A stretch of DNA of 64,000 nucleotides, taken from the sequence record PZ019085.1; one strand, written 5' to 3'. Below, one piece after another: positions 2,490 to 61,710 of the stretch. The translations under genes and the position numbers were made by a program. Each line of letters opens with the position of its first letter. Position 1 is the stretch's first letter. The DNA comes from a phage. Below the pieces are notes generated by a model that saw only the letters and a program-made list of their open reading frames with translations, ran no database searches and had not been told where the DNA came from.

Positions 2490-2804
2490 ATGAAAACGTA
2501 TAAAGAATTTATTGCAGAATCCGCCAACCAACGCGTTGAAGGTGGTTATATTTGGATTGAACAAGTTGAGCCGCCGAGCCGCACTTCTACAGGTAAATGG
2601 AAAATTACTGTTGATGGTCCTGGCGGTAAACGTAGGACTCTTAAAGAAATTAACGGGTACTATGAAGAAGCTCTTTCGGATGCAGGAACTTACATGATGC
2701 AAATCATGATTAAAAACCCTGAAAACCGTTTTGCAGCTAAAGTCTTCCGCCGTATTGGTAATAAACTTTATGATGCATACTCTAAAAACTTCCCTAAAGA
2801 ATAA
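2490..2804 (+). CDS. Internal protein (capsid-targeting leader MKTYKEFIAE)
   Basis: Leader motif; own upstream promoter-like element. Confidence 0.7.
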   Translation: MKTYKEFIAESANQRVEGGYIWIEQVEPPSRTSTGKWKITVDGPGGKRRTLKEINGYYEEALSDAGTYMMQIMIKNPENRFAAKVFRRIGNKLYDAYSKNFPKE

Positions 2805-2829
2805 CATAAATTAAAACAATAGGAACAAA

Positions 2830-3159
2830 ATGAAAACATATCAAGAGTTTATCACTGAAGTTACATTATCTGCGGAACAGAAAGCTGCTATCGAAGAAGG
2901 TAAAAATCCCAAAGTAACATATAAAGTAAATAGTAAAGGCGTTTTTGATGACTTGGTTCAAGACCCTGAATTGAAAAAGGCTCTTTCTAAAACTAATGCG
3001 TACTTTGCTCCTAAATTTAACACAGCCGGTGTACTTATTGGATTGGATGTATTCAACTCTAAAGGTGTTCTATCTAATGCCTTTGGTTATGCCGCTAACA
3101 AAATTACCAAAGCCGCATGGGAATCCAATACTAAACAAGCTCAAAAGCCTAGAGTATAA
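2830..3159 (+). CDS. Internal protein (capsid-targeting leader MKTYQEFITE)
   Basis: Leader motif. Confidence 0.7.
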   Translation: MKTYQEFITEVTLSAEQKAAIEEGKNPKVTYKVNSKGVFDDLVQDPELKKALSKTNAYFAPKFNTAGVLIGLDVFNSKGVLSNAFGYAANKITKAAWESNTKQAQKPRV

Positions 3160-57573: not shown

Positions 57574-58251
57574 ATGAGCACTGATGTTATTATAGATTTT
57601 GAAACATTCGGCAATACATCAAAAGCGGCTGTTATTGACCTTGCGGTTATTGCATATAATTCCGACCCTGAAGTTGTTGAATCATTTGAAGAACTTGTTC
57701 AACGTGGTAAGCGAATTAAATTTAATTTAGCTTCTCAAAAAGGGAAGCGAGTTTTCGCTAAATCCACTATGAAATGGTGGAAAGAACAATCAGCAGAAGC
57801 ACGTAAAAACTTGGCTCCGTCTGAAGACGATGTCACTACGCTTGAAGGCATAAAAATCTTTTTAGATTATTGCCGAGCTAATAAAGTTGACCAATGGAAA
57901 TCACAGATGTGGTGCCGTGGTATGAGCTTTGACTTCCCGATCTTGGTCGATTTGATTCGTGACCTCTATCGTGATGAAGGTGTTCTTGAACCAGATATTG
58001 ATACTGATAAATTAGAACCGGTTAAATTCTGGGCTCAACGCGATATTCGTACGGCAATCGAAGCTTACTCGTTGACACGAGGATTAAGTATGTGTCCATT
58101 ACCAATGGGTACACTAAAAGGATTCGTTGCCCATGATAGTATTCATGATTGTGCTAAAGATATTTTGATGTTAAAATATGCTCAGCGTTATGCGCTTGGT
58201 CTTGAAGATGTCCCTGAGAATCCTGACCCGTTAAGTGTAAAACAGCGATAA
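57574..58251 (+). CDS. dexA: Exonuclease A (DnaQ-like 3'-5' exonuclease)
   Basis: IIDFETFG Exo I motif; position next to dda. Confidence 0.85.
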   Translation: MSTDVIIDFETFGNTSKAAVIDLAVIAYNSDPEVVESFEELVQRGKRIKFNLASQKGKRVFAKSTMKWWKEQSAEARKNLAPSEDDVTTLEGIKIFLDYCRANKVDQWKSQMWCRGMSFDFPILVDLIRDLYRDEGVLEPDIDTDKLEPVKFWAQRDIRTAIEAYSLTRGLSMCPLPMGTLKGFVAHDSIHDCAKDILMLKYAQRYALGLEDVPENPDPLSVKQR

Positions 58252-58317
58252 AATCAGTTTACAACCAAGGATGGTTGTGGTATAATCTTTCTATCTTAAC
58301 TAAACAGGAAAAACATT

Positions 58318-58812
58318 ATGAATATCAATACTACGGCTACTTACATCCTGAAAGACGAAAAACAAATCAACTGGTACGGTGCTTCAGTGCGAGCTTATGA
58401 AAAGTTTTGTGAAATTTTAGGTGCCACTCAAGGTAATAGTTTCACTATTGTTAACTTCATCAAACAAGCTGAAGGTCCTTGGTTATTCTTAGAAATTAAA
58501 AATTCATACGGTACAATTTCTACTACCGCCCTTCCAAGCACCGACTTTGAACTGTTGATTGAAGAAGCACCTGTTAAAGATGGTCTCCACTTTGATATGG
58601 ACATCGCTTGTATGTACGGTACTCTGATTAAGCCTATTGAGCCTACTGATTTGTTGTGTAAAGCCGTTTCAATTCGACGTCCGTTCGCAGGTCCAGTGAG
58701 TGGATGGGTAACTGACCAGTGGATTGAAGATGGTGTTGAACTTCTGAACGTAGTTCATGCAGGTGATTTTAGTGTAGTTCCTCGTAGTGCTGTGGTTAAT
58801 ATTCTTAATTAA
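58318..58812 (+). CDS. Hypothetical protein, member of a tandem paralog triplet
   Basis: C-terminal motif GWVTDQWIEDGVELLNVVHAGDFSVV shared with the next two genes. Confidence 0.55.
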   Translation: MNINTTATYILKDEKQINWYGASVRAYEKFCEILGATQGNSFTIVNFIKQAEGPWLFLEIKNSYGTISTTALPSTDFELLIEEAPVKDGLHFDMDIACMYGTLIKPIEPTDLLCKAVSIRRPFAGPVSGWVTDQWIEDGVELLNVVHAGDFSVVPRSAVVNILN

Positions 58813-58874
58813 TGTTTTACATCCAAGGATGGATGGAGTATAATGAATTCAACTTAAACAAAGAGAGAAAAAAT

Positions 58875-59330
58875 ATGATTAATATTGGTGAAATTAAACG
58901 TGTATCAACAGTGTCTCGTTCTAAAGCTGCAGGAAAGCTGGTTGAAGTAGTAGGACTTCGTACTAATGGCATGGGTCGTATTAAAGAAGTTAAAGTTCGA
59001 ATCATCCCCAGTTTTGGCGGACAAGATGCCCAGTATGCTTACGTAAGTCCTAAATTCCTGGAAACTCATGTGAGTGCTCATTTTGCTTCTACTGAACCTA
59101 ATGTACAGTTCAAATGGACCTTGTGTAAAGGTGTTGAATTCCAGACTGATAAAGAATTTGACTTCATCGATGAATACGGTTATCCAAGCAAAACTGATAT
59201 TATGTGTGGCTTCATTAGTGACCAATGGGTTGAAGATGGTGAAAAGTTATACAATATCGTATTCTTAGGTGACTTCCGAGTTGTTAAAGAATCTGAAATC
59301 ACTCGCTATGTGTCTCCTCGTAAAGCTTAA
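58875..59330 (+). CDS. Hypothetical protein, member of a tandem paralog triplet
   Basis: SRSKAAGKLVEV ... GFISDQWVEDGEKLYNIVFLGDFRVV. Confidence 0.55.
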   Translation: MINIGEIKRVSTVSRSKAAGKLVEVVGLRTNGMGRIKEVKVRIIPSFGGQDAQYAYVSPKFLETHVSAHFASTEPNVQFKWTLCKGVEFQTDKEFDFIDEYGYPSKTDIMCGFISDQWVEDGEKLYNIVFLGDFRVVKESEITRYVSPRKA

Positions 59331-59339
59331 GGAATTATT

Positions 59340-59759
59340 ATGAATATTGCAAATCTCTCTATTGGTGATTATGTACACGTATCAGATGCTTCTCGCTCTA
59401 AAGTTGCTGGTAAGTTGGTCGAAGTTCTTTCTGTGAGTGATCCGGTTTTTGGACGTAACGAAGTTAAAGTTCGTGACGCTGATGGTAACATTGGTTACGT
59501 TAAAAGCCAATTCATCGAGCCAGAAGAACGCGCGTTCAAATGGAAACTGTGCAGATCGGTTTTAGTTGTAAAAGACCACGAGTTCACCATTGCTGCGGCA
59601 ACAGATGGAACACCGTGGACAACGAATCAAGTTGCTGGTTTTATTTCGGACCAATGGGTAGAAGATGGTGTTAAGCTTTATAACATCGTTTTCGCTGGAC
59701 AGTTCATAGTAGTTCCTGAGTTCCAAATCAAAAAATATTGTCCAGCATCTTTTGCATAA
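59340..59759 (+). CDS. Hypothetical protein, member of a tandem paralog triplet
   Basis: SRSKVAGKLVEV ... GFISDQWVEDGVKLYNIVFAGQFIVV. Confidence 0.55.
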   Translation: MNIANLSIGDYVHVSDASRSKVAGKLVEVLSVSDPVFGRNEVKVRDADGNIGYVKSQFIEPEERAFKWKLCRSVLVVKDHEFTIAAATDGTPWTTNQVAGFISDQWVEDGVKLYNIVFAGQFIVVPEFQIKKYCPASFA

Positions 59760-59763
59760 AGTT

Positions 59764-59814
59764 GTTTACTTCTCCTCTGGTTTTGATATTATACCCATAT
59801 CAACCAGAGGAGAA
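59764..59814 (+). promoter_or_regulatory. Early promoter with 13-bp inverted repeat ttctcctctggtt/aaccagaggagaa bracketing the -10 and forming the SD
   Basis: gtttac at 59764-59769, tattat at 59787-59792; repeat arms 59770-59782 and 59802-59814. Confidence 0.55.
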
Positions 59815-59818
59815 TAAT

Positions 59819-60343
59819 ATGTTAGTTTACCGCGTAGAACGTAGTTTTTGTACTCAACGTGAATCATTACCAGGAATTGCTATTGAAGACGGTAAAGCCG
59901 TCAGAATTTGGGAAACCTCTTGGAATAAAGAACCTCGCTCGCCGTACGGTTGGTCGGGCACCGACAACTCTGAAGAAACATGGGAGTTCCTTGATAAGCA
60001 TGGAATACTCTCAGGTAACTTCTACCATCATGGCGACAACTATAATGTCCCTAATCGTCCTACAGTAAATGAAGACAAACTCCTTGAACAAAATATCTTA
60101 AGATACTATAGAATTGAGCACACATTTGAATTGAGTGAAGATTGGGCTCAATGGTTCTATTTTGGATTTGAAAGTGTTGACGCGGTTTATGCATGGTTTG
60201 ATGACCAGGTGGATGTTGAACTCTTGAAAGCTAAAGGATACTACATCGCTGTCTATGAAGCACCTGATTTCATCCTCGGAAGTTGTCAATTAATGTTTAG
60301 ACGTTCATTGGCAGAACAAGTTGATTTTATTTTGCTAAAATGA
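59819..60343 (+). CDS. Hypothetical protein
   Basis: ATG 59819 after agaggag. Confidence 0.5.
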   Translation: MLVYRVERSFCTQRESLPGIAIEDGKAVRIWETSWNKEPRSPYGWSGTDNSEETWEFLDKHGILSGNFYHHGDNYNVPNRPTVNEDKLLEQNILRYYRIEHTFELSEDWAQWFYFGFESVDAVYAWFDDQVDVELLKAKGYYIAVYEAPDFILGSCQLMFRRSLAEQVDFILLK

Positions 60344-61222: not shown

Positions 61223-61669
61223 ATGGCTTTTAATACGTCTTTTAAAGGTTTTAAAGGTTTTGAAGTTGGTAAGAAATATCGTATTATCAAAGGACAGGAA
61301 GATAATTTCTTGAGAATTCTTAATACGACCGGTAAACGTCTTAATACTAATCTGCATACTACTTTATTGTCTAAAGATTTTATTGTGGAAGAGATGATTG
61401 GTTATGGTGTTTCAGTGATTGCCGTAGAAGCCGTAGGTGATTATGGCCGAACTATTCATAGTATGCAAGGTGATATTCTGATTTATGGTGCAGAATTTAA
61501 ATTCTTTGAAGAAGTTCCGGAACCAGATACAGCTGTCGATTTCAAAAAAGGCTCTATAGAATTTGTTGATGGTTCGGTGATCGTATCAGGCGATGTGGTC
61601 ATTACAGTTAAAAGTGAACAAGGGCGTTTAGCTGCAATTGATACACTTCAGAAAATTAAATTTAAATAA
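61223..61669 (+). CDS. Hypothetical protein
   Basis: ORF track. Confidence 0.45.
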   Translation: MAFNTSFKGFKGFEVGKKYRIIKGQEDNFLRILNTTGKRLNTNLHTTLLSKDFIVEEMIGYGVSVIAVEAVGDYGRTIHSMQGDILIYGAEFKFFEEVPEPDTAVDFKKGSIEFVDGSVIVSGDVVITVKSEQGRLAAIDTLQKIKFK

Positions 61670-61710
61670 GGGCTTAGGCCCTTTTTGCTTTAGATTTCGG
61701 ATGATAGAAT
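61668..61710 (+). promoter_or_regulatory. Terminator hairpin followed by a MotA-type middle promoter (TGCTTTA, -10 tagaat) for gene 39
   Basis: aagggc-ttag-gccctt plus T-run; TGCTTTA at 61686-61692, tagaat at 61705-61710; shares a cggatgatagaat core with the gene 47 promoter. Confidence 0.5.

What the first reader, a model, noticed from the sequence alone, without database searches (positions are those of the whole stretch)
58318..59759. Tandem triplet of paralogous genes with a conserved C-terminal DQW(I/V)EDG motif
Three consecutive genes of about 140-165 aa share a C-terminal block (G-F/W-x-S/T-D-Q-W-I/V-E-D-G...L-x-N-I/V-V-x-x-G-x-F-x-V-V). Two also share an N-terminal SRSK-x-AGKLVEV block. 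Each has its own early promoter. Local duplication and divergence in an early region is typical of host-interaction or anti-defence gene families.
Basis: seen in the sequence. Interest (0 to 1): 0.55.

Follow-up and report, generated by a model that had tools for sequence, protein, structure and literature searches.

The report
Known motB.1–motB–motB gene cluster
The three neighbouring genes are real relatives of one another, but they are the already described motB.1 / motB / second-motB early genes of an RB69-like T4-type phage, whose best-studied member (T4 MotB) coats and compacts DNA and loosens the host's H-NS gene silencing.

Summary
Genes A (58318-58812, 164 aa), B (58875-59330, 151 aa) and C (59340-59759, 139 aa) share a significant C-terminal block: BLASTP E = 3e-10 (A-B), 2e-11 (A-C), 3e-32 (B-C). 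All three pass the Pfam cut-off for PF17613 (MotB).

The window is a Mosigvirus, the RB69/JS09 group of T4-type phages.
- A is the MotB.1 orthologue.
- B is the MotB orthologue (49% identical to T4 MotB).
- C is the second, more divergent motB copy that RB69's GenBank record already annotates.

Patterson-West et al. 2021 (PMC7827196) already reported the shared C-terminal domain, the differing N-terminal domains, and the "2 motB + 1 motB.1" content of RB69. The finding is therefore already known.

This is an early host-takeover family, but only A and B have an early promoter; C lies 9 nt behind B. No anti-defence role has been shown.

Small additions from this work:
- The shared domain models as an acidic SH3/Tudor-like barrel, not clearly the published OB fold.
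- The family is narrow: 36 hits, about two dozen credible, among 1.84 billion cluster representatives.
- The 119-aa MotB.1 of the T4 reference record comes from a single extra G that 11 other T4 records and RB55/RB59 lack.

The parts
58258..58286 (+). Early-type sigma-70 promoter of gene A (TTTACA-17-TATAAT with TG). The spacer contains a 7-bp hairpin, ACAACCA/TGGTTGT.
58318..58812 (+). Gene A, 164 aa: MotB.1 orthologue. It has an N-terminal alpha/beta domain (aa 1-85), a linker holding the motif FDMDIACMYGTLIKP (aa 86-107), and the shared C-terminal module (aa 108-164).
   Evidence: phrog_2333 E=1.5e-81 and PF17613 on aa 88-159; 47% identical over the full length to the 143-aa T4 MotB.1, E=3e-47; AF2 model pLDDT 81.6
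58639..58809 (+). Shared C-terminal module of A (EPTDLLCKAV...GWVTDQWIEDGVELLNVVHAGDFSVVPRSAVVNILN): five predicted strands, net charge -3.
58816..58844 (+). Early-type promoter of the B-C pair (TTTACA-17-TATAAT). Its spacer hairpin CATCCA/TGGATG is homologous to that of the A promoter. It lies inside the extended 172-aa ORF, which argues for ATG 58875 as the start of B.
58875..59330 (+). Gene B, 151 aa: MotB orthologue. It has a basic KOW/SH3-like N-terminal domain (aa 1-60, net +7, SRSKAAGKLVEV), a disordered linker, and an acidic C-terminal module (aa 78-151).
   Evidence: PF17613 E=1.2e-37 over the full length; 49% identical to T4 MotB, E=2e-43; 89% identical to RB69 MotB P0137; AF2 pLDDT 84.6; charges
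59340..59759 (+). Gene C, 139 aa: second, more divergent motB copy, equivalent to RB69ORF010c 'similar to motB'. It starts 9 nt after B's stop codon and has no early promoter of its own.
   Evidence: PF17613 E=4.2e-24; 45% identical to B; 40% identical to T4 MotB, E=1e-29; RB69 annotation; dN/dS 0.13-0.17
59765..59814 (+). Context, not a family member: a weaker promoter (59765-59792) embedded in a strong hairpin (59770-59814) whose 3' arm covers the Shine-Dalgarno sequence of the next gene.
   Evidence: -23.9 kcal/mol, z=-5.65
59819..60343 (+). Context: gene D, 174 aa, MotB.2 homologue (phrog_1106). It shows no detectable relation to the MotB module.
   Evidence: hhalign probability <1%

Best explanation
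This is the motB.1 - motB - motB' early gene cluster of a Mosigvirus (RB69/JS09-like T4-type phage), sitting between dexA and motB.2/cef. B is the orthologue of T4 MotB, an abundant early protein that binds DNA tightly without sequence specificity, co-purifies with H-NS/StpA on DNA, changes the H-NS footprint, derepresses part of the H-NS regulon and raises burst size about two-fold. All of that is shown for T4 MotB and inferred here from orthology. C is a lineage-specific, faster-diverging duplicate, very probably co-transcribed with B. A is MotB.1: the same C-terminal module fused to an unrelated N-terminal domain, with unknown function. My committed mechanistic reading has two parts. First, the variable N-terminal domains bind nucleic acid: the basic KOW-like domain of B binds DNA, and the reported LSm-like domain of A may bind RNA. 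Second, the shared, highly conserved, acidic SH3/Tudor-like C-terminal barrel is a common assembly or partner-binding module, either self-association that drives DNA compaction or contact with one shared target. Sub-confidences: identity of the genes 0.97; B acts as a MotB-type nucleoid protein 0.75; the C-terminal module is an assembly/partner module rather than the DNA binder 0.35.
Confidence: 0.8

Rival explanations
1. All three proteins are non-specific DNA-binding nucleoid proteins. The shared C-terminal domain is the DNA-binding element (the published OB-fold reading), and the N-terminal domains only modulate it.
Confidence: 0.3
2. This is an anti-defence gene family. The duplicated and domain-shuffled copies are decoys or inhibitors of host immune proteins, and copy number tracks host defence repertoires.
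For: Early expression, a non-essential region, variable copy number (1-3) and swapped N-terminal domains. B and C evolve faster than flanking genes, dN/dS 0.13-0.23 against 0.02-0.10. MotB counteracts H-NS silencing, which restrains foreign DNA.
Against: No published anti-defence phenotype exists; only two papers in the library mention motB.1, and neither reports one. The known activity is general DNA binding. dN/dS is well below 1.
Confidence: 0.1
3. C, and possibly A, are redundant duplicates on the way to loss, with no function of their own.
For: T4 delta-motB.1 has no phenotype. The T2 row shows a single, MotB-type place, so it appears to lack a MotB.1-type copy. The motB.1 reading frame is broken in the T4 and RB69 reference records.
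Against: A, B and C are intact here and in close relatives, with dN/dS 0.03-0.23. The three-copy state is seen in every Mosigvirus row sampled. The broken frames are absent from 11 other T4 records and from RB55/RB59, so they look like record- or stock-specific changes.
Confidence: 0.1

Closest known systems
T4 MotB (gene motB, Pfam PF17613; Patterson-West 2018 and 2021; Son et al. 2021 NAR, cited from the reference list seen and otherwise from my own knowledge)
   Same: B and C have the same two-domain layout, the SRSK-AGKLVEV N-terminal block and the DQWVEDG...LYN-VF C-terminal block. They occupy the same early region between dexA and cef, and B is preceded by an early promoter directly after the motB.1 stop codon, as in T4.
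   Different: Identity to T4 MotB is 49% for B and 40% for C. The linker is shorter. There are two copies instead of one. C's N-terminal domain has lost the net positive charge (0 against +7 in B). No biochemistry exists for these copies.
T4 MotB.1 (143-aa form found in most T4 records; 119 aa in NC_000866)
   Same: A aligns over its full length (47% identity, E=3e-47) and lies directly upstream of motB.
   Different: A carries a 20-aa insertion in the linker that contains the motif FDMDIACMYGTLIKP. In T4, motB.2 lies upstream of motB.1; here it lies downstream of the second motB copy.
RB69 motB.1 / RB69ORF012c / motB / RB69ORF010c / motB.2 (GenBank AY303349)
   Same: Same genes in the same order. 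This is the same locus in a sister phage.
   Different: In the RB69 record motB.1 is split into 132 aa + 29 aa by two single-T insertions. In the window the gene is intact.
SH3-like 'Royal family' and KOW barrels (53BP1 tandem Tudor, PHF19 Tudor, MRG15 chromo, PWWP, BAH, NusG/Spt5 KOW)
   Different: Sequence identity is only 7-20%, with no shared aromatic-cage motif that I could verify. This is a resemblance of fold only, not membership.
Other phage antagonists of H-NS (T7 gp5.5, T4 Arn), as discussed in PMC7827196
   Same: Same proposed outcome: relief of H-NS silencing early in infection.
   Different: Those proteins bind H-NS directly. MotB associates with H-NS only in the presence of DNA. 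There is no sequence relation.

Membership tests
Pfam PF17613 (MotB, 'modifier of transcription') | Whole-protein score above the curated cut-off of 25 bits | tested here: met
   A 36.8 bits (aa 88-159 only), B 129.8 bits (aa 1-146), C 85.7 bits. The isolated C-terminal modules also pass.
MotB proper (Category 1 of Patterson-West 2021) | Similarity to T4 MotB in both the N-terminal (KOW-like) and C-terminal domains | tested here: met
   B: 49% identity, E=2e-43, full length. C: 40% identity, E=1e-29, full length. A does not meet this, because its N-terminal domain is unrelated.
MotB.1 (Category 2 of Patterson-West 2021) | MotB.1-type N-terminal domain plus MotB.1-type C-terminal module, located next to motB | tested here: met
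   A against the 143-aa T4 MotB.1 (P0011): 47% identity over 162 columns, E=3e-47. phrog_2333 E=1.5e-81. A lies directly upstream of B.
MotB / MotB.1 locus | Position in the early, non-essential dda-dexA...cef-goF-39 region, transcribed in the same direction | tested here: met
   Window order is dda, dexA, A, B, C, D (motB.2), cef, goF-like, 39.2-like, gene 39. T4 and RB69 are compared.
MotB as a phage nucleoid-associated protein | Non-specific DNA binding, nucleoid compaction, altered H-NS footprint, toxicity on expression | not testable with these tools
   Known only for T4 MotB; inferred here for B from orthology.
KOW motif (Pfam PF00467) for the N-terminal domain of B and C | Sequence match to the KOW profile, or a KOW-type SH3 fold | tested here: inconclusive
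OB fold (cold-shock type), published prediction for the shared C-terminal domain | OB topology of the C-terminal barrel | tested here: inconclusive
MotB module in gene D (MotB.2) | Detectable homology of D to the MotB/MotB.1 profile | tested here: not met
   hhalign probability 0.2% and 0.1%. D's only family match is phrog_1106, not a MotB family.
Anti-defence proteins | Demonstrated inhibition of a defined host defence system | not tested
   No suitable library or experiment was available. The literature search found no such report.

The most novel reading that the evidence does not exclude
The shared acidic SH3/Tudor-like C-terminal barrel is a protein-protein assembly module. Through it MotB.1, MotB and the second MotB copy co-assemble into one phage 'chromatin' complex. 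The interchangeable N-terminal domains (basic KOW-like for DNA, LSm-like for RNA, and others) would then bring different nucleic acids or partners to the compacted nucleoid. Under this reading a Mosigvirus deploys a three-component system rather than three redundant copies.
Probability: 0.15. Interest if true: 0.5.

Novelty: already known. Interest (0 to 1): 0.15.

Why it matters
It matters little as a discovery. The family, its shared C-terminal domain and the extra copy in RB69-type phages are all published and annotated.

Three points are useful to people working on T4 early genes:
- The shared domain looks SH3/Tudor-like and acidic. That bears on which half of MotB binds DNA.
- The domain is a mobile module joined to at least four N-terminal architectures within a very narrow family.
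- The 119-aa "MotB.1" of the T4 reference record, whose calculated size (13.8 kDa) is the one quoted in the 2025 study, lacks the last 28 residues of that module because of one extra G. Eleven other T4 records, plus RB55 and RB59, do not have this G.

Tried and rejected
- **Fourth member of the array.** I asked whether the next gene, D (MotB.2 homologue), also carries the module, because MAFFT lined up WFDDQ...YYIAVYE with the motif. hhalign gives a probability below 1%. Rejected.
- **Further copies in the window.** A six-frame motif scan of the 64-kb window found none.
- **Own promoter for C.** There is no sigma-70-type site in the 9-nt gap. The only MotA-box-like match is a loose one inside B. 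Not convincing.
- **Reach beyond T4-type phages.** A 60-position profile searched against 1.84 billion cluster representatives gave only 36 hits. The long multi-stretch hits (P0259, P0260, P0262 and similar) are Ig-domain or tail proteins and are spurious.
- **Fold searches.** The afdb50 library was unavailable. The viral library returned only family members as significant hits.
- **Literature.** The NAR 2021 MotB paper (PMC8450097) is not held. What I say about nucleoid compaction rests on its title as listed and on my own knowledge.
- **Domain-level Pfam scan.** Scans of the isolated domains at E up to 10 returned PF17613 plus one noise-level match (PF20141, E=0.16), and nothing at all for A's N-terminal domain.

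Full report
**1. What is in the sequence**

Three + strand ORFs fill the stated interval:
- A: 58318-58812, 164 aa.
- B: ORF from 58812 (172 aa). ATG 58875 gives 151 aa, the length of RB69 MotB (P0137).
- C: 59340-59759, 139 aa.

An early-type promoter lies at 58816-58844, inside the longer ORF of B. That argues for the 151-aa form.

The similarity is well above chance.
- BLASTP gives E=3e-10 for A-B and E=2e-11 for A-C. Both matches are limited to the C-terminus; A-C has 18 of 29 residues identical.
- B-C gives E=3e-32 with 45% identity over the whole length, including the SRSK-x-AGKLVEV block.
- A six-frame scan finds the DQW[IV]EDG motif in these three ORFs only.

**2. What the genes are**

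Pfam places all three in PF17613 (MotB): A 36.8 bits through its C-terminus only, B 129.8 bits, C 85.7 bits, against a cut-off of 25. PHROGs files B and C under "MotB-like transcriptional regulator" (phrog_1671) and A under phrog_2333, with a secondary hit of its last 38 residues to phrog_1671.

The surrounding genes are dda, dexA, then A, B, C, then a MotB.2 homologue (D), cef, a goF-like gene, a zinc-ribbon gene and topoisomerase gene 39.

Megablast shows that the 4.1-kb block is 94-96% identical to many Mosigvirus genomes, including JS09, HX01, ST0, APCEc01, PhAPEC2 and ZQ3. In 147 records a single match covers at least 80% of it.

The RB69 GenBank record annotates the same order: motB.1, RB69ORF012c, motB, RB69ORF010c "similar to motB", motB.2, cef.

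Orthology:
- B is 49% identical to T4 MotB (E=2e-43).
- C is 40% identical to T4 MotB (E=1e-29).
- A is 47% identical over its full length to the 143-aa MotB.1 of T4-type phages (E=3e-47).

T4 itself has the order dexA, motB.2, motB.1, motB, cef. The position of motB.2 therefore differs between the two genera.

**3. This is published**

Patterson-West et al. 2021 (PMC7827196) state the following:
- MotB and MotB.1 share a conserved C-terminal domain but have different N-terminal domains.
- One gene probably arose from duplication of the other.
- The homologues fall into four categories.
- RB69 has two motB copies, one motB.1 and a 29-aa peptide.

Kim et al. 2025 (PMC12152347) describe the MotB.1 N-terminal domain as an LSm-like fold shared with GoF and Frd.2. 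They report that T4 delta-motB.1 has normal burst size and latent period. Only these two papers in the library mention motB.1. The finding is therefore already known.

**4. Expression signals**

Strong early-type promoters precede A (58258-58286) and B (58816-58844). A weaker one precedes D (59765-59792).

B and C are separated by 9 nt with no promoter. One loose MotA-box-like match lies inside B (59084-59109), and I give it little weight.

**5. Anatomy and distribution of the shared module**

Alignment of homologues shows a module of about 57 aa (DPTDLLCKAV-IRRPF...GWVTDQWIEDGVELLNVVHAGDFSVVPRSAV). It is 76-88% identical across proteins whose N-terminal parts differ:
- the MotB.1-type domain (A, 143-169 aa forms);
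- a second type (about 180 aa, e.g. P0035, P0042);
- a two-domain form (about 250 aa, P0030, P0048, P0241);
- a KOW-like domain as in MotB (P0061, P0062, P0243, P0247, P0254, P0255).

MotB proper (B, C, T4 MotB) carries a more divergent version of the module with a 15-20-aa insertion.

tblastn with A's module finds 781 phage records and 1685 places. In a 60-row sample there are three places in the Mosigvirus rows, two in most Tequatrovirus rows, and one in the Klebsiella and Edwardsiella phage rows and in T2.

A profile of the module searched against 1.84 billion cluster representatives returns only 36 hits. About two dozen are credible, and all of those are proteins of 100-250 aa. The long hits are unrelated Ig or tail proteins. 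The family is narrow and, as far as these searches show, confined to T4-type phages.

**6. Selection**

Compared with ZQ3 and RB69, all three genes are under purifying selection:

| Gene | dN/dS |
|---|---|
| A | 0.03 |
| B | 0.13-0.23 |
| C | 0.13-0.17 |
| dexA (flanking) | 0.02-0.05 |
| D (flanking) | 0.03-0.10 |

They are maintained genes, with B and C evolving somewhat faster than their neighbours.

**7. Structure**

AF2 with family alignments gives mean pLDDT 81.6 for A and 84.6 for B.

- In both models the C-terminal module is a five-strand unit with a short helix before the last strand, at pLDDT about 90.
- B's N-terminal 57 residues form a four-strand unit, followed by a disordered linker.

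- The hits common to both models are 53BP1 tandem Tudor, PHF19 Tudor, MRG15 chromo, PWWP and BAH domains.
- B also matches NusG/Spt5 KOW domains.
- No cold-shock OB protein stands out among the top 60 of either list; the only OB-containing entries are full-length EF-P/EfpL chains.

The viral structure library returns only family members.

**8. How it most likely works**

Shown for T4 MotB:
- tight, non-specific binding to host and modified phage DNA;
- co-purification with H-NS/StpA only in the presence of DNA;
- an altered H-NS footprint;
- up-regulation of 75 host genes, about a third of them in the H-NS regulon;
- toxicity on expression, and a two-fold burst-size benefit.

A later paper reports nucleoid compaction. 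I know this only from its title as listed and from my own knowledge, because the paper is not held. By orthology I assign this role to B (confidence about 0.75).

The division of labour between domains is my own inference from charge:

| Region | Net charge | pI |
|---|---|---|
| B, N-terminal domain | +7 | 10.4 |
| B, shared module | -4 | 4.7 |
| A, shared module | -3 | 4.65 |
| A, whole protein | -8 | 4.65 |
| C, N-terminal domain | 0 | 6.5 |

The module's invariant residues are D, Q, W, E, N and hydrophobics.

I therefore favour a model in which the N-terminal domains bind nucleic acid and the conserved module mediates self- or partner-association (confidence about 0.35). The rival is that the module is itself the DNA binder (about 0.3).

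An anti-defence role and simple redundancy remain possible but have no direct support.

**9. Things noticed on the way**

- **T4 reference frameshift.** The T4 reference record (NC_000866.4 / AF158101.6) has one extra G, ATTGGAAG instead of ATTGAAG, inside the DQWIEDG codons of motB.1. The extra base truncates the protein to 119 aa, and the missing 28 residues are readable in the next frame. Eleven other T4 records (among them T4T HM137666, KJ477684-6 and MT984581), plus RB55 and RB59, encode an intact 143-aa protein in a single tblastn piece. The T4T annotation gives 143 aa.
- **RB69 split.** RB69's 29-aa ORF012c, the "Category 3 peptide" of the 2021 paper, is the tail of motB.1. It is cut off by two single-T insertions.
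- **Hairpin before D.** A strong hairpin (59770-59814, -23.9 kcal/mol, z=-5.65) upstream of D holds D's Shine-Dalgarno sequence in its 3' arm and the -10 element of D's own promoter in its interior. Read-through transcripts from the motB promoters would mask the ribosome-binding site, while transcripts from D's own promoter would not. To my knowledge this arrangement is known for other T4 genes such as e and soc.

**10. Verdict**

The feature is real, correctly located and statistically solid, but it is an ordinary, named and published gene family. Novelty: already known. Interest: 0.15.

Noticed in passing
L002 (T4 NC_000866) 2640-2860 minus strand; L004 (T4T HM137666) 980-1215: The T4 reference record has one extra G (ATTGGAAG against ATTGAAG) inside the DQWIEDG codons of motB.1. 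This truncates the protein to 119 aa. Eleven other T4 records, plus RB55 and RB59, encode an intact 143-aa MotB.1. The 13.8-kDa size quoted for MotB.1 in the 2025 study corresponds to the truncated form.
   Followed up: yes
L003 (RB69 AY303349) 1800-1980: RB69 motB.1 is split into 132 aa plus the 29-aa RB69ORF012c by two single-T insertions in T runs. This explains the orphan '29-aa Category 3 peptide' of Patterson-West 2021. The window's gene A is intact.
   Followed up: yes
window 59765-59821: A strong hairpin (arms 59770-59782 / 59802-59814 plus an inner 59783-59789 / 59797-59803 stem; -23.9 kcal/mol, z=-5.65) lies upstream of the motB.2-like gene D. Its 3' arm covers the Shine-Dalgarno GAGGAG, and the -10 TATTAT of D's own promoter lies inside it. 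Read-through transcripts would mask the ribosome-binding site, while transcripts from D's own promoter would not.
   Followed up: partly
window 58261-58278 and 58820-58835: The spacers of the two early promoters are homologous (CCAAGGATGG is identical). Each holds a short hairpin (ACAACCA/TGGTTGT against CATCCA/TGGATG) that is kept by a change on both arms. It could be a weak terminator or 3'-end hairpin for the upstream gene, or simply a duplicated promoter.
   Followed up: partly
window 58573-58638 (A aa 86-107); P0035, P0030, P0243, P0247, P0254, P0255: A short motif (h-D-x-D-h-x-S/C-M-Y-x-x-P/L-h-K-P, here FDMDIACMYGTLIKP) recurs in family linkers. It sits between the first domain and the module in some members and at the extreme N-terminus of the 180-aa forms. 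In the AF2 model of A it is a low-confidence hairpin (pLDDT 49-64). Its function is unknown.
   Followed up: partly
window 59819-60343 compared with L002 3162-3662: The motB.2 homologue lies downstream of the motB genes in this phage and in RB69, but upstream of motB.1 in T4. This is a local rearrangement between genera. A 43-aa database protein (P0261) is a deletion chimera: about 16 residues of the MotB.2 N-terminus joined to the last ~28 residues of MotB.1.
   Followed up: partly
window 58812-58874: Many database entries for the MotB orthologue start at upstream ATGs (165-, 172- or 175-aa forms). Here the extension overlaps the early promoter at 58816-58844, so the 151-aa start at 58875 is more plausible.
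   Followed up: partly
window 58318-59759 compared with 57574-58248 and 59819-60340: Synonymous divergence from ZQ3 and RB69 is two to four times higher in A, B and C (dS 0.19-0.32) than in flanking dexA (0.07-0.09). This suggests that the motB segment is a mosaic or recombination patch. RB51, a T4-type phage, carries a module 96.5% identical to the window's.
   Followed up: no
window 61686-61710: A good MotA-box-type middle-promoter match (TGCTTTAGATTTCGGATGATAGAAT) lies just upstream of topoisomerase gene 39, next to a bidirectional terminator-like hairpin at 61668-61683.
   Followed up: no
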